DNA of 64,000 nucleotides from Clostridia bacterium (GCA_017536685.1 JAFXGW010000003.1:11-64010); one strand, 5' to 3'. Shown: positions 7,423-63,937, counted from the stretch's first letter. A program made the numbers and translations. Notes: generated by a model from the letters alone, not told the origin.

Positions 7423-9880
<2,458 letters not shown>

Positions 9881-35773: not shown

Positions 35774-36991
35774 ATGGATAAAACAAGAGGTCATAAAGCG
35801 TATCAATTTGTAAATGTAAGCGATACAGACAAAATGAAAAAAGGTGATATATTAACGTTAGATCCAGAAAAAGAAGGAAAAGAAGAAGGAACTGAATTTC
35901 AAGAAGCTTTTGAAGAATATTGTATAAATATACTTAAAGAAAAAATCCCTAATATAGATCAAGTAGCATCAAAAGATGAAATTATGAATGCTTTAGGAAT
36001 AAAAACTTACGAAGATGTAATATATATGGCTGCAAAAGATGGTGGATTAAGAGAACAAATTCTAAGTAGAGTAAAAACTCCTGAAGATAGAGCAAAATTT
36101 GTAAAAGAACTTAATGTCGATAAGAGTGAATTAAATAAAGATGGAAATACTGAAGATTTAACAAATGAAGAAGAGTCAAAAGAAGGAATGACAATTGAAG
36201 AGGCTTCTGAAATTTTAGGTATTGAGGAAGACAAGCTTAGAGATGTTGCTGGTGATGATGGTAAGATATTAGGAATCAAAAGAACAGGAAATATTGAGGC
36301 ATTATCAAGACAATTAGGAACAGAACTTGAAGACACGAGCTCTGATGTAATATTATTAAAAGTTGCTGGTCCGGCGGTGAAAAGTGAAGGTTTAATTTTA
36401 AATAGTGATGGTTCTAAATTATATACACCAGAAAATGGAGATACAACCTTAATTACAGAACTTGTAGAAGATGGAGCTAATGGAGATTATATTGAAGATA
36501 TAGATAAAGCAATACAAGAACGAGGTGTGGAGAGTAAAAAAATCGAAACAATAGATCCGGTAACAGGAAAGCCTGTTATTGAATTCGCAGAAAAAGGAAA
36601 CGAAAGAGCAGTTTCAGGATACGAAAGTGATAGCAAACAATTGTTAGAAGAATTGTCAGAAAAAATACAAATTATTGAAGATGGTCCTGGAGAAAGATCA
36701 GATAAATTAACTATGATTGCAGATGTACTATATAGCACTAAAAGCAGATTAAATGATTTACAGTCAGCATATAACATACAAGAAAACAATAGTTTAGATT
36801 CTTTAGAAAGTAAAGCAGAAGAATATGCAGCAGAAGCTGAGGTTGCCCATGCAAAAGAAACTGCAGAAGATGTTGTTGCAGGTGTTGTTACAGGCTTAGG
36901 CGTTGCTATGTTTGGGAAAGAAAAAGATGAAGATGATCCTTATGAAAAATATTCGCAAGGAAGATTACCGAAGCATTTAATGGATGATTAA
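35774..36991 (+). CDS. Hypothetical highly acidic protein, C-terminal piece of the same reading frame
   Basis: 405-aa D/E-rich ORF in the same frame as 35531-35755. There is no convincing SD before ATG 35774. metG starts 30 nt after its stop. Confidence 0.5.
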   Translation: MDKTRGHKAYQFVNVSDTDKMKKGDILTLDPEKEGKEEGTEFQEAFEEYCINILKEKIPNIDQVASKDEIMNALGIKTYEDVIYMAAKDGGLREQILSRVKTPEDRAKFVKELNVDKSELNKDGNTEDLTNEEESKEGMTIEEASEILGIEEDKLRDVAGDDGKILGIKRTGNIEALSRQLGTELEDTSSDVILLKVAGPAVKSEGLILNSDGSKLYTPENGDTTLITELVEDGANGDYIEDIDKAIQERGVESKKIETIDPVTGKPVIEFAEKGNERAVSGYESDSKQLLEELSEKIQIIEDGPGERSDKLTMIADVLYSTKSRLNDLQSAYNIQENNSLDSLESKAEEYAAEAEVAHAKETAEDVVAGVVTGLGVAMFGKEKDEDDPYEKYSQGRLPKHLMDD

Positions 36992-48105: not shown

Positions 48106-48915
48106 ATGTCATATAAAAATGATTTTAAACGAAAAAAAATAATTAAAAAAAATAAACTTAAAACAATTAGGAACTTGAACTTTAATACAATATGTCTAAT
48201 ATTAATACCAATATTTTTTATAGGTGGAACTCTAGCTAAATATATAAATAACAAAACGACAGATTTAATTTATGAGGCTAAAAAATTTTATTTTGAAAGT
48301 GATTTATTAACTGATAATACTAATTTGGCAGCATATACATACAGTGTTGGGAGCGATACAATTAAGATCGAAATAAAAAACAATATAGATGAATTAAGAT
48401 ATTCTGAAGTTGAAACAAAATATGAAATAAAAATAACAGATATACATGGAAATTCTATTAAAGATAAAGATGGAAATGTGGTTAGTACCATAAATGGTAC
48501 TTTATCCAAAAATCAAATGGATAAAGATATTGTGGAATTTACTAACCTCCCAACAGGAAACTATGTAGTTATTGCACAAGCTTTATCTCCTTATACCAAA
48601 ACAATTCAAGCTTCTTTTGTATTAACAGAAAAACAGGAAGAATTAAGCTATACGGTTAATGATTCACAAGAAAGTCCAATTTTACAAATTACAGTTCTAT
48701 CTGAAGATTATTCAGGAAATGTAAAGATAACTTGGCCATCTGGAATCGCACCAGATAGTACCAATTCGGAATTTAAAGATATAGATACAGGATATAATGC
48801 TGGATCAACAGTGATTTCTTTTGAAGCAAATTCAGAAAACAATTTTAAATTTTTTAAGAAAAATCCATCACTAGTATATGATAATAATGATTTTGGTGTA
48901 GAAAGAAGTGAATAG
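48106..48915 (+). CDS. Hypothetical exported protein with basic N-terminus and SipW/TasA-like signal segment
   Basis: 269 aa. The N-terminus KRKKIIKKNKLK...ICLILIPIFFIGGTLAKYINNKTTD resembles the ...GGT(F/Y)A(Y/F)F..D pattern of SipW-cognate (TasA/camelysin-type) signals. The remainder is beta-rich. SD GGAAAGGA lies upstream. Confidence 0.5.
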   Translation: MSYKNDFKRKKIIKKNKLKTIRNLNFNTICLILIPIFFIGGTLAKYINNKTTDLIYEAKKFYFESDLLTDNTNLAAYTYSVGSDTIKIEIKNNIDELRYSEVETKYEIKITDIHGNSIKDKDGNVVSTINGTLSKNQMDKDIVEFTNLPTGNYVVIAQALSPYTKTIQASFVLTEKQEELSYTVNDSQESPILQITVLSEDYSGNVKITWPSGIAPDSTNSEFKDIDTGYNAGSTVISFEANSENNFKFFKKNPSLVYDNNDFGVERSE

Positions 48916-49080: not shown

Positions 49081-50898
49081 ATGATTTTTTTAACAAAAGA
49101 TGGATTAGAAGATAACAAAAGTTTTAAAGAAATAATAAAAAAAGAAGAACAAATGATTGTAATGATGATAGAATCACAAAATATAAAAAGTAATATATTA
49201 TCAGATTCAATGCAAAGATTTGCTGATTATGCAGATACAGACTTAGAAAAAGTGGACGACAAAATGGACAGTATTATATTTTTCTTAAATAATTTTAAAA
49301 ATACTTTAGCATTGTCAAAAACAAATATATACTTATTAAATAATGTATTGGATTCTATAAAGAAAATTGAAGAAATTTTTACTAAAGACGACGAGAAAAA
49401 AACTGAGAAAATTGAAGAATATAATAATAATTTTATAGAAACAAACGAAATTGTTTTGGCTAATACAATTCAAATTGAGCAAACTTTAAAATACATATTA
49501 TCATTTTCAGAATTTGCTTTTGATTCAAAAAATAAATTAAATAAATTGATTACAGATATAGGGAATAAAACTTTAGATATAGAGTGGAGTATGAATAATC
49601 AAAAAAGAAATTGTAAACAGTTGAATTCAATTCCAATTGACGAATGTTTGATAGAAGAAATTGATTTAAAAGAGCACCCAGAAAATACTTTAATAGTTTC
49701 TGAAAAAGAAGATGTTGTAATATTACCATTTACAATAGATGAGCTAAACAAAATTTATGTAGGAAACAAAGGAAAATACGAAGACTTTAATGAGATAATC
49801 GACAATAAATACACAGTACCATTATCTAGATTTAGAAATACAGCTATAGCTCGTTTTAGAGAAGCATTTATGCTTATGAGAAGAAAAGAAAAAGAAACAC
49901 TAAAAAAATCCTTTGAATTAGGAATGGAACTTTTCTTTAACTACAATCTTCATCCAGCTATAATAACAGCATGTAAATCAATAGATCAATTAGATATATA
50001 TTTAGATTATTTAGATGCGAATGAAACAGAAAGGTTTGATTGTTTTAAAATAATATTCGATATAGCACCAGTAGAAGTTAAATCTAGTAAATTCAATGTA
50101 CTTATAAGCAAAATCAAAAAAATGGTAGAAAAAGATGCTAAAGTGAAAGAAAAATTTGAAGAGACACTAGAAAATAATAGTGAAATAAATTCTGATATTG
50201 AAAAAATAATAACTTCAATAGAAAAAGAAGAACCTATTAATGAAATAAATGAGATTAATCAAGAAGAAAAATTTACTGAAGTAGAAAACATAGAAAATAT
50301 CGAAAGTACTGAAATTGTTTTAGAAGGGAAATCAGAATTAGAAGAAAACGAAGTTGCTGAAATATTAGGGATAAACGAAAATAAAATAGAAGAAAAATTT
50401 GAAACTACAGAAAACAATTTAGTTGAAAATGTTCAAATTGAAGAGAGCAATTTGCCTGATAAATTAGTAGCTGTTGAAGGAAATGAAACTAAAGAGATTT
50501 CAGAAATAATTGTAAATAAAGTAAATGAAATAGAAAATAATGAAAAAGAAAAAACAGTGACAGAACAAGAAAGTGAAGTTCCAAAATCATCTAGAAGAAA
50601 AACTACATCTAAAAAAACTCCTAATAAAGAAGGGGATACCCAAAAGTCTTCAACTAAAGAAAATGATAAAACAGAAAATGAAAACAGATCTGAAGAAACA
50701 GAGAAAAAAGCAAAGAACTCTTCAGCTAAAGGAAATGATAAAACAGAAAATGAAAACAAATCTGAAGAAACAGAGAAAAAATCAAAGAAGTCTTCAACTA
50801 AAAAAAATGATAAAACAAAAAATGAAGATAAATCTAAAGAAACAAATAAGTCTGCAAGTAAAAGAAATAGCATAAAAACAACTAAAAAGAAGATCTAA
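49081..50898 (+). CDS. Hypothetical protein with K/E/N-rich repetitive C-terminal tail
   Basis: 605 aa with no signal peptide or TM. SD GAGGTGA lies upstream. There is a globular-looking central block (PLSRFRNTAIARFREAFMLMRR...HPAIITACKS). The tail contains three 24-aa repeats. Confidence 0.6.
   Translation: MIFLTKDGLEDNKSFKEIIKKEEQMIVMMIESQNIKSNILSDSMQRFADYADTDLEKVDDKMDSIIFFLNNFKNTLALSKTNIYLLNNVLDSIKKIEEIFTKDDEKKTEKIEEYNNNFIETNEIVLANTIQIEQTLKYILSFSEFAFDSKNKLNKLITDIGNKTLDIEWSMNNQKRNCKQLNSIPIDECLIEEIDLKEHPENTLIVSEKEDVVILPFTIDELNKIYVGNKGKYEDFNEIIDNKYTVPLSRFRNTAIARFREAFMLMRRKEKETLKKSFELGMELFFNYNLHPAIITACKSIDQLDIYLDYLDANETERFDCFKIIFDIAPVEVKSSKFNVLISKIKKMVEKDAKVKEKFEETLENNSEINSDIEKIITSIEKEEPINEINEINQEEKFTEVENIENIESTEIVLEGKSELEENEVAEILGINENKIEEKFETTENNLVENVQIEESNLPDKLVAVEGNETKEISEIIVNKVNEIENNEKEKTVTEQESEVPKSSRRKTTSKKTPNKEGDTQKSSTKENDKTENENRSEETEKKAKNSSAKGNDKTENENKSEETEKKSKKSSTKKNDKTKNEDKSKETNKSASKRNSIKTTKKKI
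50647..50862 (+). repeat. 72-bp (24-aa) tandem repeat x3 inside the CDS
   Basis: The units start at 50647, 50719 and 50791. They read SSTKENDKTENENRSEETEKKAKN, SSAKGNDKTENENKSEETEKKSKK and SSTKKNDKTKNEDKSKETNKSASK. Confidence 0.9.
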
Positions 50899-51672: not shown

Positions 51673-52404
51673 ATGCTAGAAGTTAGAAATCTTACAAAGA
51701 AATTTGGTGAAAACATAGCAGTTAATGATGTTTCTTTTAAGGTAGAAAAAGGAAAAATTTTTGGAATTGTTGGAAGAAATGGAGCTGGAAAATCAACCAT
51801 TTTTAGAACTATACTTAATATTATAAAACCTACAAAAGGTCAGATATTATATGAAAATAGAAAAATCGATTCTCATATTTTAGATAGAATTGGATATTTG
51901 CCTGAAGAAGGAAGCTTGATTCCTACTTATACAGTTGTAGAACTGTGTGAATATTATGGTTCGTTAAAATTAATGAATGAGGACGAAATAAAAGAGAACT
52001 TACTAATGTGGTTAGAAGAATTTGATATTTTAGAATATGCAAATAAAAAAATAAAAGACTTATCAAAAGGAAATAGACAAAAAATTCAATTTATTGTATC
52101 AGTATTACACAATCCAGATTTACTAATATTAGACGAACCATTTTCAGGTTTAGATCCAGTGAGTTCGGCTGAATTAAAAAATGCAATTTTAAAATTTAAA
52201 GATCAAAATAAAACAATAATATTTTCATCACATATAATGGAACAGGTAGAAAATTTATGTGAAGAATTTTTAATGATAAATAAAGGAAATATAGTATTAT
52301 CAGGAAATCTAAAAGAAATTGTTGAAAATTATGAACTTAATGGTACAAGAGGACATTCATTAAATGAAATTTTTATAGACAAGGTTGGAAAAGAAGATGA
52401 ATAA
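51673..52404 (+). CDS. ABC transporter ATP-binding protein
   Basis: Walker A GRNGAGKST, signature LSKGNRQK and Walker B ILDEP are present. SD AGGAG lies upstream. Confidence 0.92.
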   Translation: MLEVRNLTKKFGENIAVNDVSFKVEKGKIFGIVGRNGAGKSTIFRTILNIIKPTKGQILYENRKIDSHILDRIGYLPEEGSLIPTYTVVELCEYYGSLKLMNEDEIKENLLMWLEEFDILEYANKKIKDLSKGNRQKIQFIVSVLHNPDLLILDEPFSGLDPVSSAELKNAILKFKDQNKTIIFSSHIMEQVENLCEEFLMINKGNIVLSGNLKEIVENYELNGTRGHSLNEIFIDKVGKEDE

Positions 52405-54622
52405 TCAAAAGATTAAAGGAATGATAAAATTCAATGTTAATAAAAGCATTCAAAACAAATGGTTTATAATATTAAATGTTTTATTAATTTTAGCGACATT
52501 AATCAGTACGAATTTGACTAACATAAAAAATTTTTTAGAAAACAATAATATAAATTTATTTGAAACAGAAATACTAATAGAAGTAGTAGATAATGAAAAT
52601 ATAGGTTTTCAAAAAATAACAGAAGCTTTTTCAGATGATGAATATGTAGAAGTAAAAAAAATTACCCAAAATAACTATACAAAAGAGACAATAGAAGACA
52701 ATACAATTGTTATAGAAATTGAAAGTGATGAAGAAAAGATTATAAATGTATCTTTAGTATCTAAAGAAGGAATTGATCCATATTTGTATGATGATATCTA
52801 TATTCCTTTATCTGAAATAAGGGCAGAACAATTTGCAAAAAATAATAAAATAAAACTTGAAACTTTAGAAGTTATGAATGAAGAACTTGATATTGAAATA
52901 CTAATGTTAGGTGTAGATAATGAAAATGCAGAAACAAAACAACTAATAAATATAATTAGTACTTTTGCTATTTATATGATTTCTATTTTAGTATTTTCAT
53001 CAATATCAAATGAAATTGCTCAAGAAAAAGTTTCAAAATCTATCGAATATGTTTTAACAAGTGTTACTGCAAAAGAATATTTATTTGCAAAAGTAGCAAG
53101 TACAATATTGGTTATTTTTCTACAAGCAGTTTATATGGTACTATATTATATTGTAGGCACGTTTATAAGCTCTTTAATTAATATTGTTCAAACAGATTTT
53201 ACAGCTGCAGAAAGTATGGTTGAATTATTTAGAAATATAGATGTTGAAATTATATTATATTTGATTACTGTGTTTAGTTATGCATTAATAACATTAGTAT
53301 TGATGTCAATAATTCAGGCTGCAATTTCTTCTAAAACAACAAGTATGTCTGAGTCACAAAATGCGGTAATGTTATTATCGATGATTACAATATTTGCTTA
53401 CTTTATTACACTTGGAGTCATTACACCCGAAACTAATATGTCAATAATTATATATGTTCTTGCATGTATGCCGTTATTGTCAAATTATATGGTACCAGCG
53501 ATTTTAATGATAGGTCAAGCAACTCCTGCCTTAATAATAATTTCTTTTGCACTATTATTACTATCAATACCAATATCATTTAATATTTGTGCAAAAGTGT
53601 TTAAAAATGGTGTTTTGAATTTTAATACAAAACAAAAGACAACCAAAAGAAAAGAAGAAATAACATTAAAGGAAGAACAAGAAATAAAATTTAAAAAAGC
53701 AAAATATAAAAAATTTTCATTTGCAATAGGACTTGCAATTATTGTATATATTGTACTTCAAAATATAGGTACTGTATTAGCTGGTGTTATAATAACTCCT
53801 TTCATAAAAGATATTTTTAATGATACACAAATTGAATTAATACTTTCATTAATTGTTTCTGTAATTAGTTTATTAAGTGCGGCATCAATTATAAATGCGT
53901 ATAAAAACCCTAAAGATAAAGTCAAAAAAATTAAATTAAAAAATAAACAAAAAATAGAAATTATATTAATAGGAATATTTGCTTTACTAGTATTGCAATT
54001 TGTAACTTCTTTTATAATAACGCAATTAGGAATTGATTATTCAGTAAATACTGTTATTTTTGACAATGGAGAAAAAAATCTTTTAACAAATATACTAACA
54101 ATTTTACTGGTTGTTGTGCAAGCTGGAGTATTTGAAGAGTTATTATTTAGAAAAGCATTTATAGATTATTCAAAAAAATTTGGAACAATTTTTTCAATTT
54201 TTATATCAGCATTGTTTTTTGGATTGATACATATGAATATTAGTCAAATGATATTTGCATTTTCAATTGGAATTGTATTTGGAACAATATATGCGTTAAC
54301 AGGAAATATAAGTTTAACAATTATTTTGCATTTACTAAATAATGGATATGCTACAATAGCAACTTTATTAGCTGGAAATAATGTTGCAATACAAATAATT
54401 GATATGTCAGTTTTAATTTTTGCTTTTTTTGGTTTATTATGTTTGATAAAAATTATAATAAAAAATAAAGAATATATTAAATTAACTTTGAAAAAGATAA
54501 AAGAAAACAAAATGGATGTTTCTGAGTTTAAATACATGTTTTTTGACTTTTCATTTGTTGTTTCAATTGCTGTAATAGTAGTGATGTCAATTGCCACGGA
54601 AAAAATGTTGTCATTAATGTAA
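52385..54622 (+). CDS. Fusion protein: ABC-2-type permease domain plus C-terminal CPBP (CAAX/Abi) intramembrane protease domain
   Basis: 745 aa. The N-terminal half has a TM, an extracytoplasmic loop and ~6 TMs, as in NatB/ABC-2 permeases. The C-terminal half carries the CPBP motifs EELLFRKAF, FGLIHMN and HLLNN. It overlaps the ATPase gene by 20 nt. Confidence 0.7.
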   Translation: MEKKMNNQKIKGMIKFNVNKSIQNKWFIILNVLLILATLISTNLTNIKNFLENNNINLFETEILIEVVDNENIGFQKITEAFSDDEYVEVKKITQNNYTKETIEDNTIVIEIESDEEKIINVSLVSKEGIDPYLYDDIYIPLSEIRAEQFAKNNKIKLETLEVMNEELDIEILMLGVDNENAETKQLINIISTFAIYMISILVFSSISNEIAQEKVSKSIEYVLTSVTAKEYLFAKVASTILVIFLQAVYMVLYYIVGTFISSLINIVQTDFTAAESMVELFRNIDVEIILYLITVFSYALITLVLMSIIQAAISSKTTSMSESQNAVMLLSMITIFAYFITLGVITPETNMSIIIYVLACMPLLSNYMVPAILMIGQATPALIIISFALLLLSIPISFNICAKVFKNGVLNFNTKQKTTKRKEEITLKEEQEIKFKKAKYKKFSFAIGLAIIVYIVLQNIGTVLAGVIITPFIKDIFNDTQIELILSLIVSVISLLSAASIINAYKNPKDKVKKIKLKNKQKIEIILIGIFALLVLQFVTSFIITQLGIDYSVNTVIFDNGEKNLLTNILTILLVVVQAGVFEELLFRKAFIDYSKKFGTIFSIFISALFFGLIHMNISQMIFAFSIGIVFGTIYALTGNISLTIILHLLNNGYATIATLLAGNNVAIQIIDMSVLIFAFFGLLCLIKIIIKNKEYIKLTLKKIKENKMDVSEFKYMFFDFSFVVSIAVIVVMSIATEKMLSLM

Positions 54623-55424: not shown

Positions 55425-55985
55425 GTGGAAGGAAATTTTGTAAAAAAACCGATAGTAACTATTGAAATGGAAGATGGAGGAATTATAACAATAGAACTTT
55501 ATCCAAGTAAAGCACCAGAAACAGTAAATAACTTCATTAGTTTAGTAAGTAAAGGGTTTTATGATGGATTAATTTTCCATAGAACAATACCTGGATTTAT
55601 GGCGCAAGGTGGAGATCCAGAAGGAACCGGAATGGGGGGACCTGGATATGGAATTAAAGGAGAATTTAAAGATAACGGAGTTGAAAATACAATATCTCAT
55701 TTAAGAGGAGTTGTATCAATGGCAAGAAGTAGTATGCCAAATAGTGCAGGTTCACAGTTTTTTATAGTAACAGATGATTCAACATTTTTAGATGGACAAT
55801 ATGCAGCGTTTGGAAGTGTACTAGAAGGAATGGAGGTTGTAGACAAAATTGTAAAATCGAGAGTTATTACAAGAAGCCCATTTGGTGGAGGTAAAGATAG
55901 ACCAGTAGAACCACCTGTAATGAAAAAAGTTACAGTAGAAACATTTGGAGTAGAATATCCGGAACCACAAAAATTTAATAAATAG
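55425..55985 (+). CDS. ppiB: Cyclophilin-type peptidyl-prolyl cis-trans isomerase
   Basis: GTG start. FHRTIPGFMAQGGDP, SMARS..PNSAGSQFFI and FGSVLEGMEVVDKI are typical cyclophilin motifs. Confidence 0.92.
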   Translation: MEGNFVKKPIVTIEMEDGGIITIELYPSKAPETVNNFISLVSKGFYDGLIFHRTIPGFMAQGGDPEGTGMGGPGYGIKGEFKDNGVENTISHLRGVVSMARSSMPNSAGSQFFIVTDDSTFLDGQYAAFGSVLEGMEVVDKIVKSRVITRSPFGGGKDRPVEPPVMKKVTVETFGVEYPEPQKFNK

Positions 55986-55996
55986 GAGAATAATAT

Positions 55997-56800
55997 TTGA
56001 ATATTTATAAAAATTTAAATGAGATAATTGAATACATTGAGAGAAATTTAGAAAATAAAATTGATTATAAAATAATTTCACAAATACTTGGAACAAATGA
56101 AAATACTGTAAAAAGAGTATTTCCATTACTTACCAATATTTCAATTTCTGAATACATACGAAACAGAAGATTATCAAATGCAGGATTTGATTTATATAAA
56201 AAAGATGAAAAAATAATTGATTTGGCTGTTAAATATCAATATGAAAGTGCAACGGCATTTTCGAGAGCATTTGAAAAGTTTCATAATATGAAACCTAGTA
56301 TGGTAAAAACTAATCCTGAAAAATTAAAAGTTTTTCCTAAGTTACAATTTGAAGAAAATATTATTGAAAACTTTACTATGGAATATAGCATTATAGAAAT
56401 GGAAGAAAAAATACTTTATGGAAAAGGGATAAAAACTAATTATATTTCTATAAAAAATGATGCTCCAGAATTTTTCAAAAAAATGAGTGAAATTTATGAA
56501 AAAAAATATGGTGAAATTAATTATGGGATGATTGTTTATGAATCTAGATTTGATAGTAACAAATGTGAATATTGGATTGCCTATGACAAAGAAATTTCTG
56601 AATTTGAAAGAACTGTATTACCTAAATCTAAATGGCTAAAATTAAAAATCAATTCTCAAAATGCAAAAGATATTCAAAAAACTTCTGAGGATTTTTATTG
56701 TAAATTTGTACCAAGTTCAAAATATAAATTAAAATCCATACCAGAACTTGAATATTATCATGATAATATTACAGAGTTTTTAATAGCAATAGAAGATTAA
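55997..56800 (+). CDS. AraC-family transcriptional regulator with GyrI-like effector-binding domain
   Basis: TTG start with SD AGGAG 8 nt upstream. The N-terminal HTH (ISEYIRNRRL, YESATAFSRAFEKFHNMKPS) is followed by a ~150-aa C-terminal domain typical of the GyrI-like fold. Confidence 0.8.
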   Translation: MNIYKNLNEIIEYIERNLENKIDYKIISQILGTNENTVKRVFPLLTNISISEYIRNRRLSNAGFDLYKKDEKIIDLAVKYQYESATAFSRAFEKFHNMKPSMVKTNPEKLKVFPKLQFEENIIENFTMEYSIIEMEEKILYGKGIKTNYISIKNDAPEFFKKMSEIYEKKYGEINYGMIVYESRFDSNKCEYWIAYDKEISEFERTVLPKSKWLKLKINSQNAKDIQKTSEDFYCKFVPSSKYKLKSIPELEYYHDNITEFLIAIED

Positions 56801-56819
56801 TAAAAATATTATAAGATTG

Positions 56820-56857
56820 AGCTGACTTTTTTTGATTATAAAAAGTCAGTTTTTTTA
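56820..56857 (+). terminator. Rho-independent terminator
   Basis: CTGACTTTT (56822-56830) pairs with AAAAGTCAG (56841-56849), followed by a T-run. Confidence 0.85.
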
Positions 56858-56891
56858 TGTTTAAATAAAGTAAAATTAAATTGGTGATTGT

Positions 56892-58772
56892 ATGAAAAAG
56901 AAAAAGTATTATGAAGTATTTTTAACAACAGATAACGTATCAGAAGAGAGTTGGGGAAAATTTTTATTATATATTTCTAAATTAAATGGACTTTTTAAAA
57001 CTTGGAAAATATATATAAAATTTGAAAAAAATAATGTTAGATATTTTATAAAAACTAAAAATGAAATACCAACTACTTTAAGTGATTTAAATGATTTTTT
57101 AATAAAAAAGACTGAAGAAATCAAAATACCAAAAACAATATTCAAAACTATATATATAATTACAAACAAAGAAAAAAATATAATAGATGTTTATGATAGA
57201 AATGAAAGCAAAAAGAATAGAAAATTATTTTTTTCAGAAGTTAAGATATATCCTTTTTGCAGAAAAAATTATTTTACTTTTACCACTTTAATATTCAAGA
57301 ATAAAAAAGGACGTTTTATTTCAAAATTGGTTTTACTAAATATTGTTCATCAGTTCTTAAGCATTGACTTCTCTAAACATACAAGATTCTTATTTAGAAA
57401 AGACATAAGAAAATATTTAAATATAGAAAAAAACTTAAAATTATTTGAATGTGATAATAAAAATGGAATTTTGAAAATAAAAGCATTTCCATATTTGCAA
57501 GAGGATTATTACCTTAATTTAAATAATTATGATTTTGATAAACATTCTTTAGTTATAGGAGGATCTGGTACTGGAAAATCAAAATTTTTAAGTCTTTTGG
57601 TAGATAAAATTTATAAAAATCCAGTTTATAGGATGAAATACAAAATAGTTATAATAGATCCTCATAGTTCTTTAGAAAAAGATATAGGTGGATTAGAAAA
57701 TACTGCTATAATAGATTTTAAAAATTTCGAGAACTCAATAGATTTGTTTTCAAGTTCAAAAGATAATGTGGTAGTAGAAACAGAAATCTTTTTGAATTTA
57801 TTTAAATCACTTATGAATCAAGATTTTAATTCGAAATTAGAAAGAGTATTAAGACACAGCATTTTTCTATTAATTCAGCTTGAAAAAAATAATCTTAAAA
57901 ATTTACGAGAATTAATAACTGATAATGAATTTAGAAATAATTTAATACGAAAAAATAAAGAATTTATATCAGAACAAATTATAGATTTTTTCTTAAAAGA
58001 TTTTAACGAACTAAAAAATAAATATCATAATGAAGCAATATCTCCAATAATATCTTTTATAGATGAACTAAGTATATTACCAGTTTTTAGTGAATTCTCA
58101 AATAAAACAAATTTAGAAGAATTAATTTCTAAAAATTTTTTATCAATATTCTCTCTTGATGAGACTGTAATAGGAGAGAAGACCACAAAGACAATTTCAG
58201 GACTTGTGATGGGACAAATGTTTACTTTAATGCAAAAAAGAAAATTTGAAGAACACATAATTTTTATTATAGATGAAGTGTCTGTTGTGCAAAATCCAAT
58301 TTTAAAAAGATTTTTGGCAGAAAGTAGAAAATATAATTTAAGTATAATATTGTCAGGACAGTATTTGAATCAAGTAAATGACGATATACAAAAAGCAATA
58401 TTTTCAAATATGGTTAATTACTATACTTTTAGAATTTCAAGAGAAGATGCAGTTATTTTAAGTAGAAATTTGCAAATGGAAATAGCAATTCATGATTCCC
58501 ATTTTGCGAAAGTGAAAATCTTGACAGAATTGGCTAATAGAGAATGCATTGTGAGAGTGAGTAGCCAAGGAAGTGTTTTTCCAGCATTTAAAGCTTCAAC
58601 TCTTGAGGTAGTTCCTAAACCTAAAAACGAAGTCTTTATAAAATCTGAAATAATAAAAAATAAAGAAAGTGTAAAATCATATAAAAAATTTATTATCGGT
58701 GAAGCAGCTAATTTATTAGAAATAATGAAATCACAGTCTACGGGAAGGAGAAAAATAGTAGATGAAAAATAA
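56892..58772 (+). CDS. HerA/DUF87-like (FtsK-HerA superfamily) P-loop ATPase with unassigned N-terminal domain
   Basis: 626 aa with no TM. Walker A LVIGGSGTGKSKF (~57550-57590), VIIDPHSS, Walker B IIFIIDEVS (~58255-58285) and ESRKYNLSIILSGQYLNQ are present. Confidence 0.65.
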   Translation: MKKKKYYEVFLTTDNVSEESWGKFLLYISKLNGLFKTWKIYIKFEKNNVRYFIKTKNEIPTTLSDLNDFLIKKTEEIKIPKTIFKTIYIITNKEKNIIDVYDRNESKKNRKLFFSEVKIYPFCRKNYFTFTTLIFKNKKGRFISKLVLLNIVHQFLSIDFSKHTRFLFRKDIRKYLNIEKNLKLFECDNKNGILKIKAFPYLQEDYYLNLNNYDFDKHSLVIGGSGTGKSKFLSLLVDKIYKNPVYRMKYKIVIIDPHSSLEKDIGGLENTAIIDFKNFENSIDLFSSSKDNVVVETEIFLNLFKSLMNQDFNSKLERVLRHSIFLLIQLEKNNLKNLRELITDNEFRNNLIRKNKEFISEQIIDFFLKDFNELKNKYHNEAISPIISFIDELSILPVFSEFSNKTNLEELISKNFLSIFSLDETVIGEKTTKTISGLVMGQMFTLMQKRKFEEHIIFIIDEVSVVQNPILKRFLAESRKYNLSIILSGQYLNQVNDDIQKAIFSNMVNYYTFRISREDAVILSRNLQMEIAIHDSHFAKVKILTELANRECIVRVSSQGSVFPAFKASTLEVVPKPKNEVFIKSEIIKNKESVKSYKKFIIGEAANLLEIMKSQSTGRRKIVDEK

Positions 58773-59460
58773 GCAAGCTTTAGAAGTCTCAAACAAAGTG
58801 TTTTTAAATGTTTTTGGAAAAAATAACCATTATAAACTTGAACAAATATTATCGAAATTTGCATTTGATATAAAATTACCTCAAAAGGTTTATGATAGTA
58901 TGACAGGAAAAGAAACTTGGGCAGAATCAGTAAATCCTAATAAATTTATTACTCAAGGAAATATGGAATTATATGAAAAACAACATGGTTGGATGATAAA
59001 AAAAAGAGAAGTAAATAATTTAGATGATATTTTAAAATTATGGAAAAAGGTGAACTTTACAACAACAGAAAGAATATATGATTCAGAAAATGTATCAAAA
59101 AGCGATACAATTTATAAGTCGGAGAATGTTTATAGAAGTTTAGATTGTAGAGAATGTAAAAATATATTATTTTCAGATGGATGTGCTAATTCAGAATTTA
59201 TAATTGCTTGCCAAAGAACAAGTACATCAAATTTCTGTATTAGAGTAGATGATTCAGGAAACTGCATTAACAGTTATAATGTTATATGTTCGTCACAAAT
59301 AAGTAATTCTTTTTTCATACAGGATTGTAAAAATCTTGATGAATGTATGTTTTGTTCTCATATTTCTGATAAAAAATATTGTATATCAAATATGCAATTT
59401 GAAAAAGAAGAATATTATCAAATAAAAAAAGAAATAATAAACTGGATTCTTTCAAGTTAA
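58762..59460 (+). CDS. Hypothetical Cys-rich protein with ~12-residue repeat (beta-solenoid-like)
   Basis: 232 aa. It overlaps the upstream ATPase gene by 11 nt, and SD GGGAAGGAG lies upstream. There are 11 Cys in the last ~100 aa, arranged periodically (ENVYRSLDCREC/KNILFSDGCANS/EFIIACQRTSTS/NFCIRVDDSGNC...). Confidence 0.6.
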   Translation: MKNKQALEVSNKVFLNVFGKNNHYKLEQILSKFAFDIKLPQKVYDSMTGKETWAESVNPNKFITQGNMELYEKQHGWMIKKREVNNLDDILKLWKKVNFTTTERIYDSENVSKSDTIYKSENVYRSLDCRECKNILFSDGCANSEFIIACQRTSTSNFCIRVDDSGNCINSYNVICSSQISNSFFIQDCKNLDECMFCSHISDKKYCISNMQFEKEEYYQIKKEIINWILSS

Positions 59461-59556
59461 AATTTAATTTTATTATTTTATCAATAATTGCTATTTTGTT
59501 ACATTTAGCATTTTATTTAATAAGAAATAAGAAAGGCGAAAAGCCTATTAAATAAA

Positions 59557-59584
59557 CAAAAGCCTCTTAAGCAAGAGGCTTTTG
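59557..59584. terminator. Bidirectional hairpin terminator between convergent genes
   Basis: AGCCTCTT (59561-59568) pairs with AAGAGGCT (59573-59580), flanked by an A-run and a T-run. Confidence 0.8.
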
Positions 59585-59587
59585 GAG

Positions 59588-61801
59588 TTACTGTTCGAAT
59601 GCATTATCAATATTAGTATTTAAAGAATTAGAATTCATAATTGCTTCTGGTTCATTAACGATATTTTCTTTAACATTTGAATGATCAAGGCAAAGTTCTG
59701 TAGAAACAGTTCCTTCTAAATAATATTCCATGTATGCATCTTTACAAATATCTGTTGCAATTAGATCTGTTAATGGACAAACATCAGCAGTTTCAATTTT
59801 AGCAGGTACTGCAAATTGCTTTCCTGGGTGTTCTGAGTGTATAGTTTTCATGACAGAGCTCCAAACTTGTCCAGCTGGATTTTTATTATTAAAATTAATT
59901 GTTTCATTATAATCAAATCCGAACCAAGTTGTGGCAGTATAGTAAGGTGTAAAACCGCAAAGCCATCTATCATAATCAGCATTAGTAGTGCCAGTTTTGG
60001 CTGCAACATCTATATTGTTGATTTTACAATATTTCGCAGTACCATGAGTGCCGTCAACTGGTTCTTTTAATAATGATTTAACAATAAAAGCAACTTCTTT
60101 GGAAAATACTTTTTTTCTAGTTTGTTTTGTTTTTTGAATTATTTTTCCATTGGCATTTTCAATTCTCGTATAAAATGTAGGCTCAATATAAACTCCATCA
60201 TTTGCAATAGTGCTATATGAAACAGCCATTTCAAGAGGGCTAATTCCTTTATCTAAACCACCGAGTGCTAGATTTAAATTATTATCAATATCTGTAAGAG
60301 ATGTAATTCCCATATTTATCATATAATTGATAGATACTTGTGGTGTAAGTTGTTCCATTATTTTTACAAATGGAATATTTTGAGATGATTCTACAGCTTT
60401 TCGAACAGTAATATTTCCTTGATAGTTATTATAGTCAGTAGGAGAGTAACCTTCTTCAGTACCATCATCAAATTTAGTTGGTGCATCATTATAAATACTA
60501 GATGCTGTTATTATTTTTTTATCAATTGCTGGTACCAGTACAGCTATTGGTTTCCCAGCAGAGCCTGTTTGACGTGTACTTTGAGTTGCTCTATTTAAAC
60601 CACGTGAAATTTCTTTTTTTCCAATTCCTCCAACACAACCTAAAACTTGTCCATTTGTATGGTCTATCACTACCATAGCTGCTTGAGCTATTACTGAAGG
60701 ATTTTCTTGAGATTTTATAATATATTTAGGATTTGATAATTCATTTTCAATTGCTTTTTGTATACTAGAATTTTGAGTACTATAAATTTTCAAACCAGCC
60801 ATTTCAATATAGTTTGTAGCGAATTCAATTGATATATGTTTTTTTTCTGAAATATCAGTAATGATTTCATTAAGAAGACTATCGGTGTGGTATGAATAGA
60901 TATTATTTTTTGAAGTATTTTCAATTTTTCTTTGCTTAAAATTTAGCCCCTTTTCAACGTTTTCGATAGCTAATTTATAATCATTTTCATTTATATAGTC
61001 AAGCTCAAACATTTTGGATAAAACTGTTTTTGTTCTATTTTTTATTTTCTCAGAATTATCTTTTTCACCAAAAGGGTTATAAGAATTTGGAGAATTGTTT
61101 ATACCCGCTAAAAATGCGCATTCTTCTAAATTTAATTCATTAACATCTTTATCAAAATAATAATTTGCTCCAAGGCTAACTCCATAAATATTTGGACCAA
61201 CATAAATTATATTTAAATAAGCTTGCAAAATTTCATTTTTTTCTAAAATGCTTTCTAACGCAATAGCTCTTATCCATTCTTTTACTTTTCTTAATACACT
61301 AGAAGAATTATCACCAGTTAAATTTTTAACTAATTGTTGAGTTATACTACTCCCCCCAAAAGAAGAAGAACCCAAGTTTTTTATATAAGAAAATATTGCT
61401 GCAGTAGTTCTTGGAAAATCAACGCCAGAATGCTTATAAAATCTTTGGTCTTCAATTGAAATATATGCGTTTTTTAAATTTTCAGGCATCTCAGACAAGG
61501 GAATATTTTTTGTTTTTTTACTATTTCCAATTTCTGCGATTAAATTTCCATTAGTATCAAAAATAGAAGATGGTGAATTGTAAATCATATTTCTTGCTAG
61601 ATTTTGCCAATTAGAAATATAAAGTCCAGTATAAAATGCTAACATTATAATTATTATAAAAGTTATAGCGAAGATCTTTTTTATTTTTTCTAAATTTATT
61701 TTTGGTTTTAATTTATGAAATTTTTTGTCTTTATTTTCGATTTCAACATTTTCATTTATTGCTTTTTCTGAATTATTAGATTTATTTTTTTCTTTTTTCA
61801 A
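59588..61801 (-). CDS. Class A penicillin-binding protein (PBP1A-type transglycosylase/transpeptidase)
   Basis: 737 aa with an N-terminal TM. GT51 motifs are EDQRFYKHSGVD and GGSSITQQLVKN. Transpeptidase motifs are SAGK (SxxK), SQN (SxN) and KTGT. Confidence 0.93.
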   Translation of the reverse strand: MKKEKNKSNNSEKAINENVEIENKDKKFHKLKPKINLEKIKKIFAITFIIIIMLAFYTGLYISNWQNLARNMIYNSPSSIFDTNGNLIAEIGNSKKTKNIPLSEMPENLKNAYISIEDQRFYKHSGVDFPRTTAAIFSYIKNLGSSSFGGSSITQQLVKNLTGDNSSSVLRKVKEWIRAIALESILEKNEILQAYLNIIYVGPNIYGVSLGANYYFDKDVNELNLEECAFLAGINNSPNSYNPFGEKDNSEKIKNRTKTVLSKMFELDYINENDYKLAIENVEKGLNFKQRKIENTSKNNIYSYHTDSLLNEIITDISEKKHISIEFATNYIEMAGLKIYSTQNSSIQKAIENELSNPKYIIKSQENPSVIAQAAMVVIDHTNGQVLGCVGGIGKKEISRGLNRATQSTRQTGSAGKPIAVLVPAIDKKIITASSIYNDAPTKFDDGTEEGYSPTDYNNYQGNITVRKAVESSQNIPFVKIMEQLTPQVSINYMINMGITSLTDIDNNLNLALGGLDKGISPLEMAVSYSTIANDGVYIEPTFYTRIENANGKIIQKTKQTRKKVFSKEVAFIVKSLLKEPVDGTHGTAKYCKINNIDVAAKTGTTNADYDRWLCGFTPYYTATTWFGFDYNETINFNNKNPAGQVWSSVMKTIHSEHPGKQFAVPAKIETADVCPLTDLIATDICKDAYMEYYLEGTVSTELCLDHSNVKENIVNEPEAIMNSNSLNTNIDNAFEQ

Positions 61802-61963: not shown

Positions 61964-63937
61964 ATGAGAAAAAAAAGTGGTGTAAAAGTAGTAATTATAA
62001 TATTTATGCTTATTTTGTTGATAATAGGCTTAATTTGTGGAGGTGCATATGTATATATAACAACAGATTTATTTAAAACACCTGAACAATTATTTAAAAA
62101 ATATTTATTAAGTAATGTTATTGAAGTTTCTCAACTAAACTTTGAACCATTTAATGAAATTAATGAAAGATCAAAAGAAGAGGTAACGGCACATACTTTA
62201 GATATAGATATCGATCCAAGTTCTATACTTGGTGGGCTTGGAGAAACAGAAAAAGTTAATGCCAAATTAGATTTTATAACAGATTTCCCAAATAAAAATA
62301 AAGAATTCCAAGTTCTTATAAATAATAATGATAAAGAACTTTTTAGAGGAAATATAGTTTTAGTAAACGAGACCTTAGGAATAAGTATTCCTGATTTATA
62401 TGATAAATTTGTTTCTGTGGAGAATAGAGATTTTAAGAAGATGGCAAAAACTTTTAACTTGCCTGAAGAATATATAGAAATAATTCCAGATAAACTTACA
62501 AGTATTTTTTCTATAGAAGACGAAGAAAGAATAAGTCAACTACTAAGTAAATATGGACTAAAGATAATGGAGAAATTGGATGAAAACAATTACATAATTG
62601 AAAAAGATATAAATATTAATGTAAATTCAAAAGAAATGATTGGTAACAAATATACGTTAGCAATAAGTACTCAAAAAATATACGGTGCTATAACAAATAC
62701 AATTAAAGAATTATTAGAGGACCCAGAATTTTTAGAACTATGCAAAGGTAAAATACCAGCCAAAGAATTAGAAGAAATGAAAACATCATATAATAATGCT
62801 TTAGAAGAGACACCTACTGATGACATTGAAGATAAAATATTAAATATCTCATTATATGCTGTAGATGGAAGAACTGTTAAAACAGAATTAACTGTTGATA
62901 AAAATGAAGCATACTTTATTATAGAAAATAACGAAAACGAAAGTATTATAACATTTGCAACAATTGAACCTAAAAGTGATACAAACGAAATTGGAACAAC
63001 ATCTTTAGTAACTATAAAAAATAAATATGCTAATAACTCAGGTGAGTTAACTTATGAAATTGCAACTACTTATAATAAAGATGATATTAATGAATTACAA
63101 GCAGAATATGATGCCAAAAATAGCGATTATAGAGAATATTTTAATGCAGATTATAGTGAAGTATATTCTGACCAAAAAATAAAATATATTATAAAAACTA
63201 AAAAAACAAACAACGATACTATAACAGCTAAAATTACATTTGAGGGAGACAATTTAGAAGCATTTAATGACTTTGTAAATATAAATTTTAAATGTCAATT
63301 TGGAAAAAATGAAATAACAATGTTAAATGAAGAAAATTCAGTTGCAATTAATGATTATACAATGGAAGATTATAGTAAATTATTACAAGACATAACAACA
63401 AACGCAACGAACCTTGTTTTAGAAAAACCATATTCATTAATGGGAATGATTATGGCTAATTTCAATACTACCAAAAAAGATGAAGAACCATCTTTTTCAG
63501 AAGATATTTATTCTGAGGATTACACTGCAGAAAAGCCTTATGCTGAAGATTATAGCGGATATGAAGAAATTACTTTTCCGGATGATGGAGATAATAATAA
63601 TTATCTATATCCTACAACACCTGTAAATATAGAGAATCTTAGAAATGATATTGATGTGGCTATAACAAATGGATTAAATGAAGCTTTAAATAGTTATAAA
63701 GTTGAACTAATGTATAATCCAGAAGCAAATTTAGGTGATTTTCTTACAGTAGAAAATGTACAAAAATCTTGTGGAGATAGATATAATCTAGAACTACCTG
63801 AAGGAAGTACAATTAAATGCACTATATCAGAAAATGGAACAGAATACATATATTATGCATTAATGAATATAGATGGAGATCAGCTTGTGGTAACTGAAGT
63901 AGAGGTTTTAACAGAAGAAGAATATTTAAATAGATAA
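61964..63937 (+). CDS. Hypothetical membrane-anchored acidic protein
   Basis: 657 aa. It has an N-terminal TM (VVIIIFMLILLIIGLICGGAYVYI) and a large extracytoplasmic D/E/N-rich domain. No motif was recognised. Confidence 0.55.
   Translation: MRKKSGVKVVIIIFMLILLIIGLICGGAYVYITTDLFKTPEQLFKKYLLSNVIEVSQLNFEPFNEINERSKEEVTAHTLDIDIDPSSILGGLGETEKVNAKLDFITDFPNKNKEFQVLINNNDKELFRGNIVLVNETLGISIPDLYDKFVSVENRDFKKMAKTFNLPEEYIEIIPDKLTSIFSIEDEERISQLLSKYGLKIMEKLDENNYIIEKDININVNSKEMIGNKYTLAISTQKIYGAITNTIKELLEDPEFLELCKGKIPAKELEEMKTSYNNALEETPTDDIEDKILNISLYAVDGRTVKTELTVDKNEAYFIIENNENESIITFATIEPKSDTNEIGTTSLVTIKNKYANNSGELTYEIATTYNKDDINELQAEYDAKNSDYREYFNADYSEVYSDQKIKYIIKTKKTNNDTITAKITFEGDNLEAFNDFVNINFKCQFGKNEITMLNEENSVAINDYTMEDYSKLLQDITTNATNLVLEKPYSLMGMIMANFNTTKKDEEPSFSEDIYSEDYTAEKPYAEDYSGYEEITFPDDGDNNNYLYPTTPVNIENLRNDIDVAITNGLNEALNSYKVELMYNPEANLGDFLTVENVQKSCGDRYNLELPEGSTIKCTISENGTEYIYYALMNIDGDQLVVTEVEVLTEEEYLNR

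What the first reader, a model, noticed from the sequence alone, without database searches (positions are those of the whole stretch)
56892..59460. Insulated two-gene module: HerA/DUF87-like ATPase translationally coupled to a Cys-laddered ~12-residue-repeat protein (candidate novel defence or translocation system)
Strong terminators bracket the pair (56820-56857 and 59557-59584). The two ORFs overlap by 11 nt (58762-58772), which implies co-translation. Gene 1 has no TM segment and an unassignable ~220-aa N-terminal region. It then carries Walker A LVIGGSGTGKSKF, VIIDPHSS, Walker B IIFIIDEVS and ESRKYNLSIILSGQ. This constellation is characteristic of HerA/DUF87 and VirB4/FtsK-type hexameric ATPases. 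Gene 2 has a soluble N-terminal ~100 aa. It then has ~110 aa in which 11 Cys and conserved S/N positions recur about every 12 residues (ENVSKSDTIYKS / ENVYRSLDCREC / KNILFSDGCANS / EFIIACQRTSTS / NFCIRVDDSGNC / INSYNVICSSQIS / NSFFIQDCKNLDEC / MFCSHISDKKYC). That periodicity suggests a disulfide- or metal-stapled beta-solenoid. HerA-family ATPases paired with a variable effector are a recurrent anti-phage architecture (HerA with Sir2 or with nuclease partners), and NurA-HerA acts in DNA repair. This partner is neither NurA-, Sir2-, nor nuclease-like as far as I can tell. No conjugation, phage or integrase genes lie nearby.
Basis: partly seen in the sequence, partly recalled or inferred. Interest (0 to 1): 0.75.

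Follow-up and report, generated by a model that had tools for sequence, protein, structure and literature searches.

The report
Conserved ring-ATPase plus solenoid-protein operon
A soluble HerA/VirD4-like ATPase and a previously undescribed repeat protein form a tightly linked, regulated gene pair conserved in hundreds of gut Clostridia and also found in ultra-small bacteria (Patescibacteria) and archaea (Micrarchaeota); it is a real, unnamed system of unknown function and does not look like a mobile anti-phage island.

Summary
Gene 1 (56892-58772, 626 aa) is a soluble DUF87/HerA- and VirD4-like P-loop ATPase. Gene 2 (58762-59460, 232 aa) overlaps it by 11 nt.

The partner protein has no Pfam, NCBIfam, PADLOC, PDB or Foldseek relative. 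Its repeat is a 6-residue Ser/Cys/Asn ladder (AlphaFold strands every 12 residues), not a Cys ladder. Family-wide, only C198, C207 and N210 are invariant or nearly so.

The pair is adjacent in 79 of 80 species-level Clostridia genomes. An AraC/GyrI-like regulator usually lies upstream. The same ATPase-partner link recurs in Patescibacteria (one to seven tandem partner copies) and Micrarchaeota (five to twelve copies, some fused doublets).

The upstream "terminator" is conserved in sequence: CTGAC-N18-GTCAG lies 21 nt before the -10 box, so it also looks like an operator.

The partner evolves more slowly than the ATPase and the PBP. Flanks are housekeeping genes. No phage, plasmid or viral-contig copies were found. 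A defence-island reading is therefore weak.

Best reading: an inducible cytoplasmic ATPase-adaptor complex of unknown substrate. It is a new variant of the "HerA/FtsK ATPase plus partner" theme.

The parts
55997..56800 (+). AraC-type HTH plus GyrI-like ligand-binding regulator (267 aa), the usual third member of the module in Clostridia
   Evidence: Pfam HTH_18 2e-13 and GyrI-like 7e-6. An orthologue (49-70% identity) lies upstream of gene 1 in most Clostridia loci and clusters in 73 of 108 loci. Archaeal loci carry an HTH_10 regulator instead.
56820..56851 (.). Sequence-conserved palindrome: half-sites CTGAC (56822-56826) and GTCAG (56845-56849), 18-nt spacer, followed by a T-run. Candidate operator overlapping the -35 region that also serves as the terminator hairpin of the regulator gene
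   Evidence: The scan calls it a terminator. It is the only CTGAC-N12-22-GTCAG in the 64-kb window (0.05 expected). An exact 20-base version occurs once per locus in 47 loci, always just upstream of gene 1. The spacer is 18 nt in 52 of 53 loci, although extra inner pairing varies from 0 to 8 bp. The -10 box starts exactly 21 nt after GTCAG in 35 of 53 loci. The element stays with gene 1 where the AraC gene is not adjacent (L038, L043, L052, L104).
56871..56876 (+). Inferred -10 box TAAAAT of the gene 1-gene 2 promoter
   Evidence: It lies 21 nt after the right half-site, the modal distance in related loci. In 25 of 53 loci the box is an extended -10, TGnTAnAWT. This is an inference; no transcript data exist.
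56892..58772 (+). Gene 1: soluble FtsK-HerA superfamily ATPase (626 aa). It has a basic N-terminal domain (aa 1-200, net charge +24), Walker A at 57558-57584, Walker B at 58257-58283, an ESRKYN box at 58320-58361, and a conserved C-terminal SQSTGRRK at 58731-58754
   Evidence: More than 1600 homologues were found. Patescibacteria ATPases match full length (E 1e-90 to 1e-102 over residues 4-572). Micrarchaeota ATPases match the ATPase core (E about 1e-44).
58746..58750 (+). Shine-Dalgarno AGGAG for gene 2, inside the 3' end of gene 1
   Evidence: The tight junction is conserved elsewhere: an 8-nt overlap in L004 and L104, a 4-nt overlap in L097, and 2- to 4-nt gaps in L095 and L098.
58762..59460 (+). 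Gene 2: founding-type member of an unnamed family (232 aa). It has an N-terminal alpha/beta domain (aa 1-100, motif FAFDIKLPQKV at 58858-58890), a hexad Ser/Cys/Asn-ladder repeat region (aa about 105-196, starting 59074), the central motif CIRVDDS (59236-59256), and a C-terminal cap and helix, ECMFCSHISDKKYCISNMQFEKEEY (59341-59415)
59557..59584 (-). Palindromic GC-core hairpin between the convergent gene 2 and PBP1 genes. It is the terminator of the PBP gene and possibly bidirectional

Best explanation
This is a chromosomally fixed, transcriptionally switched, cytoplasmic two-protein machine.

Gene 1 makes a soluble ring ATPase of the FtsK-HerA/VirD4 clade. Its N-terminal 200 residues are strongly basic. 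Gene 2 is translated from the same mRNA through an overlapping start. Its product is the ATPase's dedicated partner: an N-terminal alpha/beta domain, a narrow Ser/Cys-ladder beta-solenoid, and a conserved cap and helix.

The conserved ends of the partner are read as docking or assembly surfaces. The central solenoid surface is read as the specificity-bearing part. That central part diversifies where the gene is multiplied into arrays in Patescibacteria and Micrarchaeota.

Expression is controlled at a palindromic operator (CTGAC-N18-GTCAG) overlapping the -35 region. The neighbouring ligand-sensing AraC/GyrI-like protein is the most likely regulator.

The ATPase most plausibly spends ATP moving along or remodelling a nucleic acid, with the solenoid protein acting as adaptor or regulatory subunit.

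Shown: gene structure, ATPase family, cross-domain linkage, conservation pattern, and the operator-promoter geometry. Inferred: physical complex, hexamer, nucleic-acid substrate, identity of the regulator, and the beta-solenoid fold of residues 140-210.
For: Linkage. Gene 1 lies directly upstream of gene 2 in 79 of 80 species genomes. Only three protein families recur across 108 loci: the partner (108), the ATPase (97) and the AraC regulator (73). The same ATPase orthologue sits next to partner genes in Patescibacteria (L095, L097, L098) and Micrarchaeota (L088, L100, L102). Gene junctions are overlapping or nearly abutting everywhere.

ATPase nature. Pfam DUF87 and TrwB_AAD_bind both score above their cut-offs. 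The best solved relatives are bacterial HerA proteins (8xau, E 9e-7). Plasmid proteins annotated as T4SS DNA-binding-domain proteins share 24-26% identity. The N-terminal domain carries +24 net charge and there is no TM segment.

Partner. Hexad ladder with p about 2e-4. The AlphaFold model has pTM 0.80, is confident for residues 1-140, and places strands every 12 residues. Paralogues in one array (L097, 40-53% identical) keep the N-terminal helix and the last 75 or so residues but vary in the middle. Fused two-unit proteins exist.

Not mobile. Flanks are housekeeping. Gene 2 is 59-82% identical across loci where the ATPase is 42-73% (PBP1, present only in the closest loci, 66-73%). No phage, plasmid or viral copies were found.

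Regulation..
Against: There is no direct evidence of a complex, of oligomeric state, or of any substrate. The partner is near neutral (net +1; solenoid region -4), so it is neither an obvious DNA binder nor a DNA mimic. Residues 145-210 of the model are low confidence, so the solenoid is inferred from periodicity. Some archaeal loci have partner genes but no ATPase within 8-10 kb (L089, L091, L108). In one Clostridia species the ATPase carries a +1 frameshift in three independent assemblies while gene 2 is intact, so the partner may not strictly need the ATPase. AraC-family proteins more often bind direct or asymmetric repeats than palindromes, so the operator may belong to another factor.
Confidence: 0.42

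Rival explanations
1. It is an anti-phage or anti-plasmid defence system of the HerA-plus-effector type. The solenoid protein would be a new sensor or effector. Arrays of diverged paralogues in Patescibacteria and Micrarchaeota would broaden recognition.
For: The closest solved and profiled ATPase relatives are defence HerA proteins and MADS mad8. The paralogue arrays have a variable central region. A regulator is attached. The system is compact and self-contained.
Against: No PADLOC system matches, and the NCBIfam antiphage HerA model scores far below its cut-off. MADS is an eight-gene operon and none of its other genes is here. The partner has no enzyme-like signature. Gene 2 is the second most conserved gene in its neighbourhood, and the module persists across at least 403 species genomes; this does not fit an arms-race component. 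Neighbours are housekeeping, with no integrase or other defence genes.
Confidence: 0.2
2. The solenoid proteins are self-associating building blocks of an intracellular scaffold or filament, comparable to bactofilin or other beta-helix polymers. The ATPase would load, remodel or disassemble the scaffold.
For: The partner evolves more slowly than its ATPase, as expected when most of the surface is an interface. One to twelve paralogues follow a single ATPase gene, the pattern typical of structural subunits. Natural tandem fusions of two complete units suggest unit-unit contact. The termini are conserved. The repeat architecture is solenoid-like.
Against: There is no evidence of polymerisation. 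FtsK/HerA-type ATPases are not known as filament chaperones. The basic N-terminal domain of the ATPase points to nucleic acid instead. Inducible control by a ligand-sensing regulator is unusual for a cytoskeletal element.
Confidence: 0.2
3. It is a substrate-delivery or export module. The ATPase would act like a coupling protein (VirD4) or EssC/EccC, and the solenoid proteins would be its substrates, recognised through their conserved C-terminal helix.
For: TrwB_AAD_bind scores above its cut-off, and the nearest plasmid relatives are T4SS coupling-type proteins. An ATPase followed by arrays of small paralogues with a conserved C-terminus resembles T7SS loci. One Micrarchaeota locus has a T2SSF gene nearby.
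Against: The ATPase has no TM anchor. No membrane channel, relaxase or secretion gene recurs in the 108 loci. The partners have no signal peptide. T2SSF was seen in only one locus.
Confidence: 0.06

Closest known systems
HerA-partner pairs (archaeal HerA-NurA; bacterial Sir2-HerA and DUF4297-HerA defence complexes)
   Same: The ATPase core is DUF87/HerA-type. Profile matches to the solved bacterial HerA proteins 8xau, 8wiv, 8ziq and 8j4u cover the Walker A region and the EGRKYG-like box. The partner gene is co-transcribed and tightly coupled.
   Different: No HAS-barrel domain was detected. The N-terminal domain is a distinct basic domain. The partner is unrelated to NurA, Sir2 or nucleases and has no enzyme signature. 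The module is vertically inherited among housekeeping genes. The NCBIfam antiphage HerA model is far below its cut-off.
Type IV secretion coupling proteins (VirD4/TrwB/TraG)
   Same: Pfam TrwB_AAD_bind matches over residues 216-498. The protein is 24-26% identical to plasmid proteins annotated as T4SS DNA-binding-domain proteins. A long helical insert lies between Walker A and Walker B.
   Different: It is soluble, with no N-terminal membrane anchor. No T4SS, relaxase or oriT context is present. It is chromosomal and not on plasmids.
Type VII secretion EssC/EccC with downstream substrate arrays
   Same: An FtsK-like ATPase gene is followed by one to many small paralogous genes with a conserved C-terminal segment.
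   Different: There are no TM segments, no EssA/EssB/EsaA-type genes, and no WXG100 fold. This is a resemblance of gene layout only.
Narrow beta-helices with a small-residue ladder (Tenebrio antifreeze protein with 12-residue coils and Cys every 6 residues; bactofilin)
   Same: A small residue (Ser or Cys) recurs every sixth position, with predicted strands every 12 residues. The comparison with TmAFP rests on my own knowledge of its TCTxSxxCxxAx repeat.
   Different: There is no sequence or Foldseek match. The protein is cytoplasmic, the ladder is mostly Ser so disulfides are not expected, and it has an extra N-terminal domain and C-terminal helix.
MADS defence system gene mad8 (PADLOC PDLC04140)
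   Same: This is the best PADLOC hit, E 1.3e-13 over the ATPase core, residues 205-509.
   Different: MADS is an eight-gene operon in Pseudomonas aeruginosa (bioRxiv 10.1101/2023.03.30.534895). None of the other seven genes is present.

Membership tests
FtsK-HerA superfamily / Pfam DUF87 (HerA central domain) | P-loop core with Walker A and Walker B, and a profile match above the curated cut-off | tested here: met
   DUF87 scores 35.4 bits against a cut-off of 23.2. Walker A is at aa 223-231 and Walker B at aa 456-464. The family profile hits solved HerA 8xau at E 9e-7.
HerA proper (HerA-NurA, anti-phage HerA) | N-terminal HAS-barrel domain | tested here: not met
   No HAS-barrel or other Pfam hit falls in residues 1-200 at E<=1. 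The profile search of PDB finds no match in that region.
HerA proper (HerA-NurA, anti-phage HerA) | Equivalog-level match to the anti-phage HerA model, and a NurA, Sir2 or nuclease partner | tested here: not met
   NF042943 scores 20.7 bits against a cut-off of 800. The partner has no Pfam, NCBIfam or PADLOC family.
HerA proper / ring translocases | Hexameric ring assembly and nucleic-acid-stimulated ATPase activity | not testable with these tools
   This needs biochemistry or multimer structure prediction.
T4SS coupling protein (VirD4/TrwB) | All-alpha-domain region homologous to TrwB | tested here: met
   TrwB_AAD_bind scores 24.5 bits against a cut-off of 20.5, over residues 216-498.
T4SS coupling protein (VirD4/TrwB) | N-terminal transmembrane anchor, and a T4SS or relaxase gene context | tested here: not met
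   The maximum 19-residue hydropathy is 1.49. No secretion or relaxase family recurs in 108 loci. The window neighbours are housekeeping genes.
Known anti-phage defence systems (PADLOC-DB v2) | A complete set of system genes matching the PADLOC models | tested here: not met
   Only partial ATPase-core hits (mad8 and HerA models) were found. Gene 2 has no hit.
Defence islands / mobile elements | Patchy distribution; neighbours that are defence, integrase or phage genes; copies on phages or plasmids | tested here: not met
   The module is kept in 79 of 80 related species genomes with changing housekeeping flanks. No hits were found in the phage, plasmid (gene 2) or IMG/VR collections. Strain-level presence or absence was not testable.
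Beta-solenoid repeat proteins | Regular short repeat with inward-facing small and hydrophobic ladder positions, and stacked strands in the structure | tested here: inconclusive
   The hexad S/C/N ladder is significant and conserved family-wide. AlphaFold gives strands every 12 residues for aa 100-136 (pLDDT 82-93 over aa 101-140), but aa 145-210 have pLDDT 39-59. No Foldseek match to any solenoid was found.
Left-handed beta-helix hexapeptide transferases (Pfam Hexapep) | [LIV]-[GAED]-x2-[STAV]-x hexapeptide and a Pfam match | tested here: not met
   There is no Hexapep hit. Here the hydrophobic residue follows the small residue by 3-4 positions, not by 2.
   Across 47 diverse members only C198 and C207 are invariant or nearly so. 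Other Cys alternate with Ser or Asn. C195-x2-C198-x-H200-x6-C207 is complete only in the Clostridia clade.

The most novel reading that the evidence does not exclude
The pair defines a previously unrecognised, cross-domain cellular machine. It consists of a soluble FtsK/HerA-type motor with a new-fold Ser-ladder solenoid partner. It is inherited as a fixed chromosomal module in a large clade of uncultured gut Clostridia. It is expanded into arrays of 5-12 diversified partners in Patescibacteria and Micrarchaeota, two radiations of ultra-small, host-dependent cells. Its function (for example a nucleic-acid handling or scaffold system specific to these lineages) would match no described system.
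Probability: 0.45. Interest if true: 0.82.

Novelty: new variant of a known kind. Interest (0 to 1): 0.66.

Why it matters
FtsK/HerA-type motors act in chromosome segregation, DNA repair, conjugation, secretion and phage defence. In each case the partner protein defines the job. Here the partner belongs to a large family with no name, no domain model and no structural relative: 624 clusters at 50% identity, and at least 403 species genomes carrying a relative.

The pairing is kept from gut Clostridia to Patescibacteria and DPANN archaea. Much of the gene content of those lineages is still unexplained.

The module is small: a regulator, an operator, an ATPase and a partner. That makes it directly testable by expression, pull-down, cryo-EM and EMSA. 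The conserved operator also gives a handle for finding the inducing signal. Working it out would either add a new function to a well-studied motor family or reveal a new kind of defence or sensor architecture.

Tried and rejected
- **Family and structure searches for gene 2 gave nothing usable.**
  - Pfam, NCBIfam, PADLOC and PHROGs gave only a weak TBCC hit (E 0.037) and phrog_15341 (E 1e-4).
  - Scanning 33 distant members against Pfam gave no recurrent family.
  - PDB sequence and profile searches gave only chance-level Src and Sir2 hits, E > 0.5.
- **Structure prediction.**
  - AlphaFold on a shallow alignment failed (pLDDT 57).
  - A more diverse alignment gave pTM 0.80.
  - Foldseek against PDB and BFVD found nothing with E < 3.
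- **Phage link suggested by the PHROG hits was not borne out.**
  - tblastn of gene 1, gene 2 and two distant family members against 50,697 phage records found nothing.
  - An IMG/VR scan found nothing.
- **Plasmids.** There is no gene 2 relative. Gene 1 matches only distant T4CP/DUF87 proteins.
- **DNA-mimic idea** (by analogy with pentapeptide-repeat proteins plus an NTPase): rejected as the lead reading, because the solenoid region has net charge of only -4.
- **Viral capsid plus packaging-ATPase idea** (single and double units resembling single and double jelly-roll capsid proteins): rejected, because the repeat chemistry, the ATPase size and the absence from viral collections do not fit.
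- **Zinc-knuckle reading of C195-C198-H200-C207:** rejected as a family feature, because C195 and H200 are not conserved outside the Clostridia clade.
- **Rfam:** no family reaches its gathering score in 55900-59700.
- **Literature:** searches on DUF87, HerA, Patescibacteria, Micrarchaeota and solenoid found no description of this pair.
Full report
**What is in the window**

The window is low-GC DNA (21-31% GC in 2-kb bins). Its closest relatives are uncultured gut Clostridia MAGs such as Candidatus Scatovivens.

At the stated coordinates there are two same-strand ORFs. Gene 1 spans 56892-58772 (626 aa) and gene 2 spans 58762-59460 (232 aa). They overlap by 11 nt. An AGGAG Shine-Dalgarno lies 11 nt before the gene 2 ATG, inside gene 1.

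Gene 1 passes the Pfam cut-offs for DUF87 (HerA central domain) and TrwB_AAD_bind. A profile of the family finds bacterial HerA structures as the best solved relatives (8xau, E 9e-7). The closest plasmid-borne proteins are T4SS coupling-type or DUF87 proteins at 20-26% identity.

Gene 1 has no TM-like segment. Its first 200 residues carry a net charge of +24. No known domain is detected there.

**The partner protein**

Gene 2 has no match in Pfam, NCBIfam or PADLOC. Its only PHROG hit is weak. PDB sequence and profile searches give only chance-level hits.

An AlphaFold model built on a diverse alignment has pTM 0.80. It is confident for residues 1-140: an alpha/beta domain, then strands at 109-112, 121-124 and 133-136. 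It is poor for residues 145-210. Foldseek finds nothing similar in the PDB or BFVD.

- S or C occupies every sixth residue from 108 to 156.
- After a 3-residue register shift, S or C again occupies every sixth residue from 165 to 195.
- A run of nine at period 6 has p about 2e-4 against shuffles.
- Across 47 family members down to 25% identity, these ladder columns are 81-100% S/C/N, with a hydrophobic residue 3-4 positions later.
- In the window protein 11 of the 15 ladder residues are Ser.
- The 11 Cys are mostly off the ladder, and several are spaced 9 apart.
- Family-wide, the only invariant or nearly invariant positions among these residues are C198, C207 and N210, in the motif MFC-x8-YCIxNxQ[FY]xKEEY; F197, I208, Q212, Y218 and R161 are also nearly invariant.

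A disulfide- or metal-stapled Cys ladder is therefore not supported. A narrow Ser/Cys-ladder solenoid with 12-residue coils is a reasonable but unproven reading.

**The pair is a conserved module**

Each protein has more than 1100 homologues at the 90% clustering level. A scan of one genome per species found relatives of gene 2 in 403 genomes.

In the best 80 of those, the ATPase gene lies immediately upstream in 79. The exception is cut by a contig end. An orthologous AraC/GyrI-like regulator lies upstream in most.

The wider flanks (sortase, cyclophilin, PBP1, DUF6583) are shared only by the closest relatives. Elsewhere the flanks are different housekeeping genes.

Clustering all ORFs of 108 loci shows that only three families recur: the partner (108 loci), the ATPase (97) and the regulator (73). 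The next most frequent family is in 15 loci.

Gene 2 is 59-82% identical across these loci. The ATPase is 42-73%, and in the closest loci, where they are present, PBP1 is 66-73% and cyclophilin 77-94%. The partner is thus under stronger constraint than its motor.

**The link crosses domains of life**

An exhaustive representative search found 624 clusters at 50% identity. They include many proteins of about 525 aa that hold two complete copies of the unit.

Named distant members come from Patescibacteria and Candidatus Micrarchaeota.
- **Patescibacteria.** A full-length orthologue of gene 1 (E 1e-90 to 1e-102) is directly followed by one partner gene (L095, L098) or by seven tandem paralogues (L097).
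- **Micrarchaeota.** Arrays of five to twelve single and double units lie next to an HTH_10 regulator and a convergent ATPase. That ATPase's core matches gene 1 at about 1e-44.

Within the L097 array the paralogues are 40-53% identical. They keep the N-terminal helix and the last 75 or so residues but vary in the middle.

There are exceptions. Three archaeal loci have partner genes without an ATPase within 8-10 kb. One Clostridia species carries a +1 frameshift in the ATPase in three independent assemblies.

**Regulation**

- The half-sites CTGAC and GTCAG are separated by exactly 18 nt in 52 of 53 loci, whether or not the inner bases can pair (0 to 8 extra pairs).
- A -10 box, often an extended TGnTATAAT, begins exactly 21 nt downstream in 35 of 53 loci.
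- An exact 20-base version occurs once per locus in 47 loci, always at this place.
- It is the only such site in the 64-kb window.
- It stays with gene 1 when the regulator gene is not adjacent.

The fixed spacing to the -10 box puts the right half-site over the -35 region. I read the element as an operator that also terminates the upstream gene. The AraC/GyrI-like protein is the obvious candidate binder, but that is an inference. No Rfam family explains the region.

**Defence or not**

Points in favour of defence:
- The nearest characterised ATPases are defence HerA proteins and MADS mad8.
- The partner arrays look diversifying.

Points against defence:
- No PADLOC system matches.
- The antiphage HerA equivalog scores far below its cut-off.
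- MADS needs seven other genes.
- The neighbourhood is housekeeping.
- No phage, plasmid or viral-contig copies exist.
- The partner evolves slowly.

I put defence at about 0.2.

**Most likely mechanism**

I commit to a regulated, cytoplasmic ATPase-partner complex. Translational coupling and invariant adjacency argue for a fixed-ratio assembly. The basic N-terminal domain and the HerA/VirD4-type core argue for a nucleic-acid substrate. The partner's conserved termini, variable centre and natural tandem fusions argue for a docking adaptor that may also self-associate.

A self-assembling scaffold serviced by the ATPase is a serious rival (0.2). An export role is unlikely, because no membrane component recurs (0.06).

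**Novelty**

The ATPase is a new branch of a known superfamily. The partner is a large, unnamed family with no detectable relatives. The pairing, its operator and its distribution across Clostridia, Patescibacteria and Micrarchaeota are not described in the databases or the literature I could search.

I class it as a new variant of the "HerA/FtsK ATPase plus dedicated partner" kind, with a substantial chance that its function is of a new kind.

Noticed in passing
window 56820-56876, and upstream of gene 1 in L001-L086 and L104-L105: The 'terminator' is a sequence-conserved palindrome (CTGAC-N18-GTCAG plus a T-run). Its spacer is fixed, and it lies a fixed 21 nt from the -10 box. It is unique in the window and occurs once per related locus. 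It looks like an operator that doubles as a terminator.
   Followed up: yes
L001, L002, L003 at 7425-7440 (species of P0077): The ATPase gene carries a +1 frameshift (an extra C in ACAATTTCTCGGATT) between Walker A and Walker B, in three independent assemblies. Gene 2 downstream is intact (67% identical to the window protein). The ATPase may be a pseudogene or split in that species.
   Followed up: partly
L100 3749-20714; L088 4147-14270; L097 5799-10990: Large tandem arrays of the gene 2 family occur: twelve members around one ATPase in a Micrarchaeota genome, eight in another, and seven in a Patescibacteria genome. They include proteins of about 525 aa that are fusions of two complete units.
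   Followed up: partly
proteins P0341, P0342, P0376: These proteins of 490-560 aa carry the same Cys/Ser-rich repeat region twice. They are flanked by treble-clef zinc fingers and have a C-terminal PLPxxHPDxR segment. This is a different architecture using the same repeat module. Their genomic context was not examined.
   Followed up: no
window 59155-59265 (gene 2 residues 132-168): In the window protein five Cys are spaced exactly 9 residues apart (132, 141, 150, 159, 168). This is superimposed on the 6-residue Ser ladder, which could hint at an 18-residue super-period. The pattern is only partly conserved within the Clostridia clade and remains unexplained.
   Followed up: partly
window 43045-48045, 48106-48915, 49081-50898, 35774-36991: Four sizeable ORFs (1666, 269, 605 and 405 aa) have no Pfam family at E<=1e-5. 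They sit among housekeeping genes.
   Followed up: no
window 51673-54622: An ABC ATPase gene is followed by a 745-aa membrane protein that fuses an ABC-2 permease domain to a C-terminal Rce1/CAAX-protease-like domain.
   Followed up: no
window 61964-63937: A DUF6583 protein (657 aa) is syntenic downstream of PBP1 in the closest relatives, but it is only 28-37% identical there. It is by far the fastest-evolving gene of the neighbourhood.
   Followed up: no
L104/L105 5155-6096; L031 2093-3052 and 14 other loci: In some Clostridia lineages a protein of about 315 aa lies beside the regulator gene. In L104 it has a weak transglutaminase-core hit and sits between the regulator and the ATPase. It may be a lineage-specific fourth component.
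   Followed up: no
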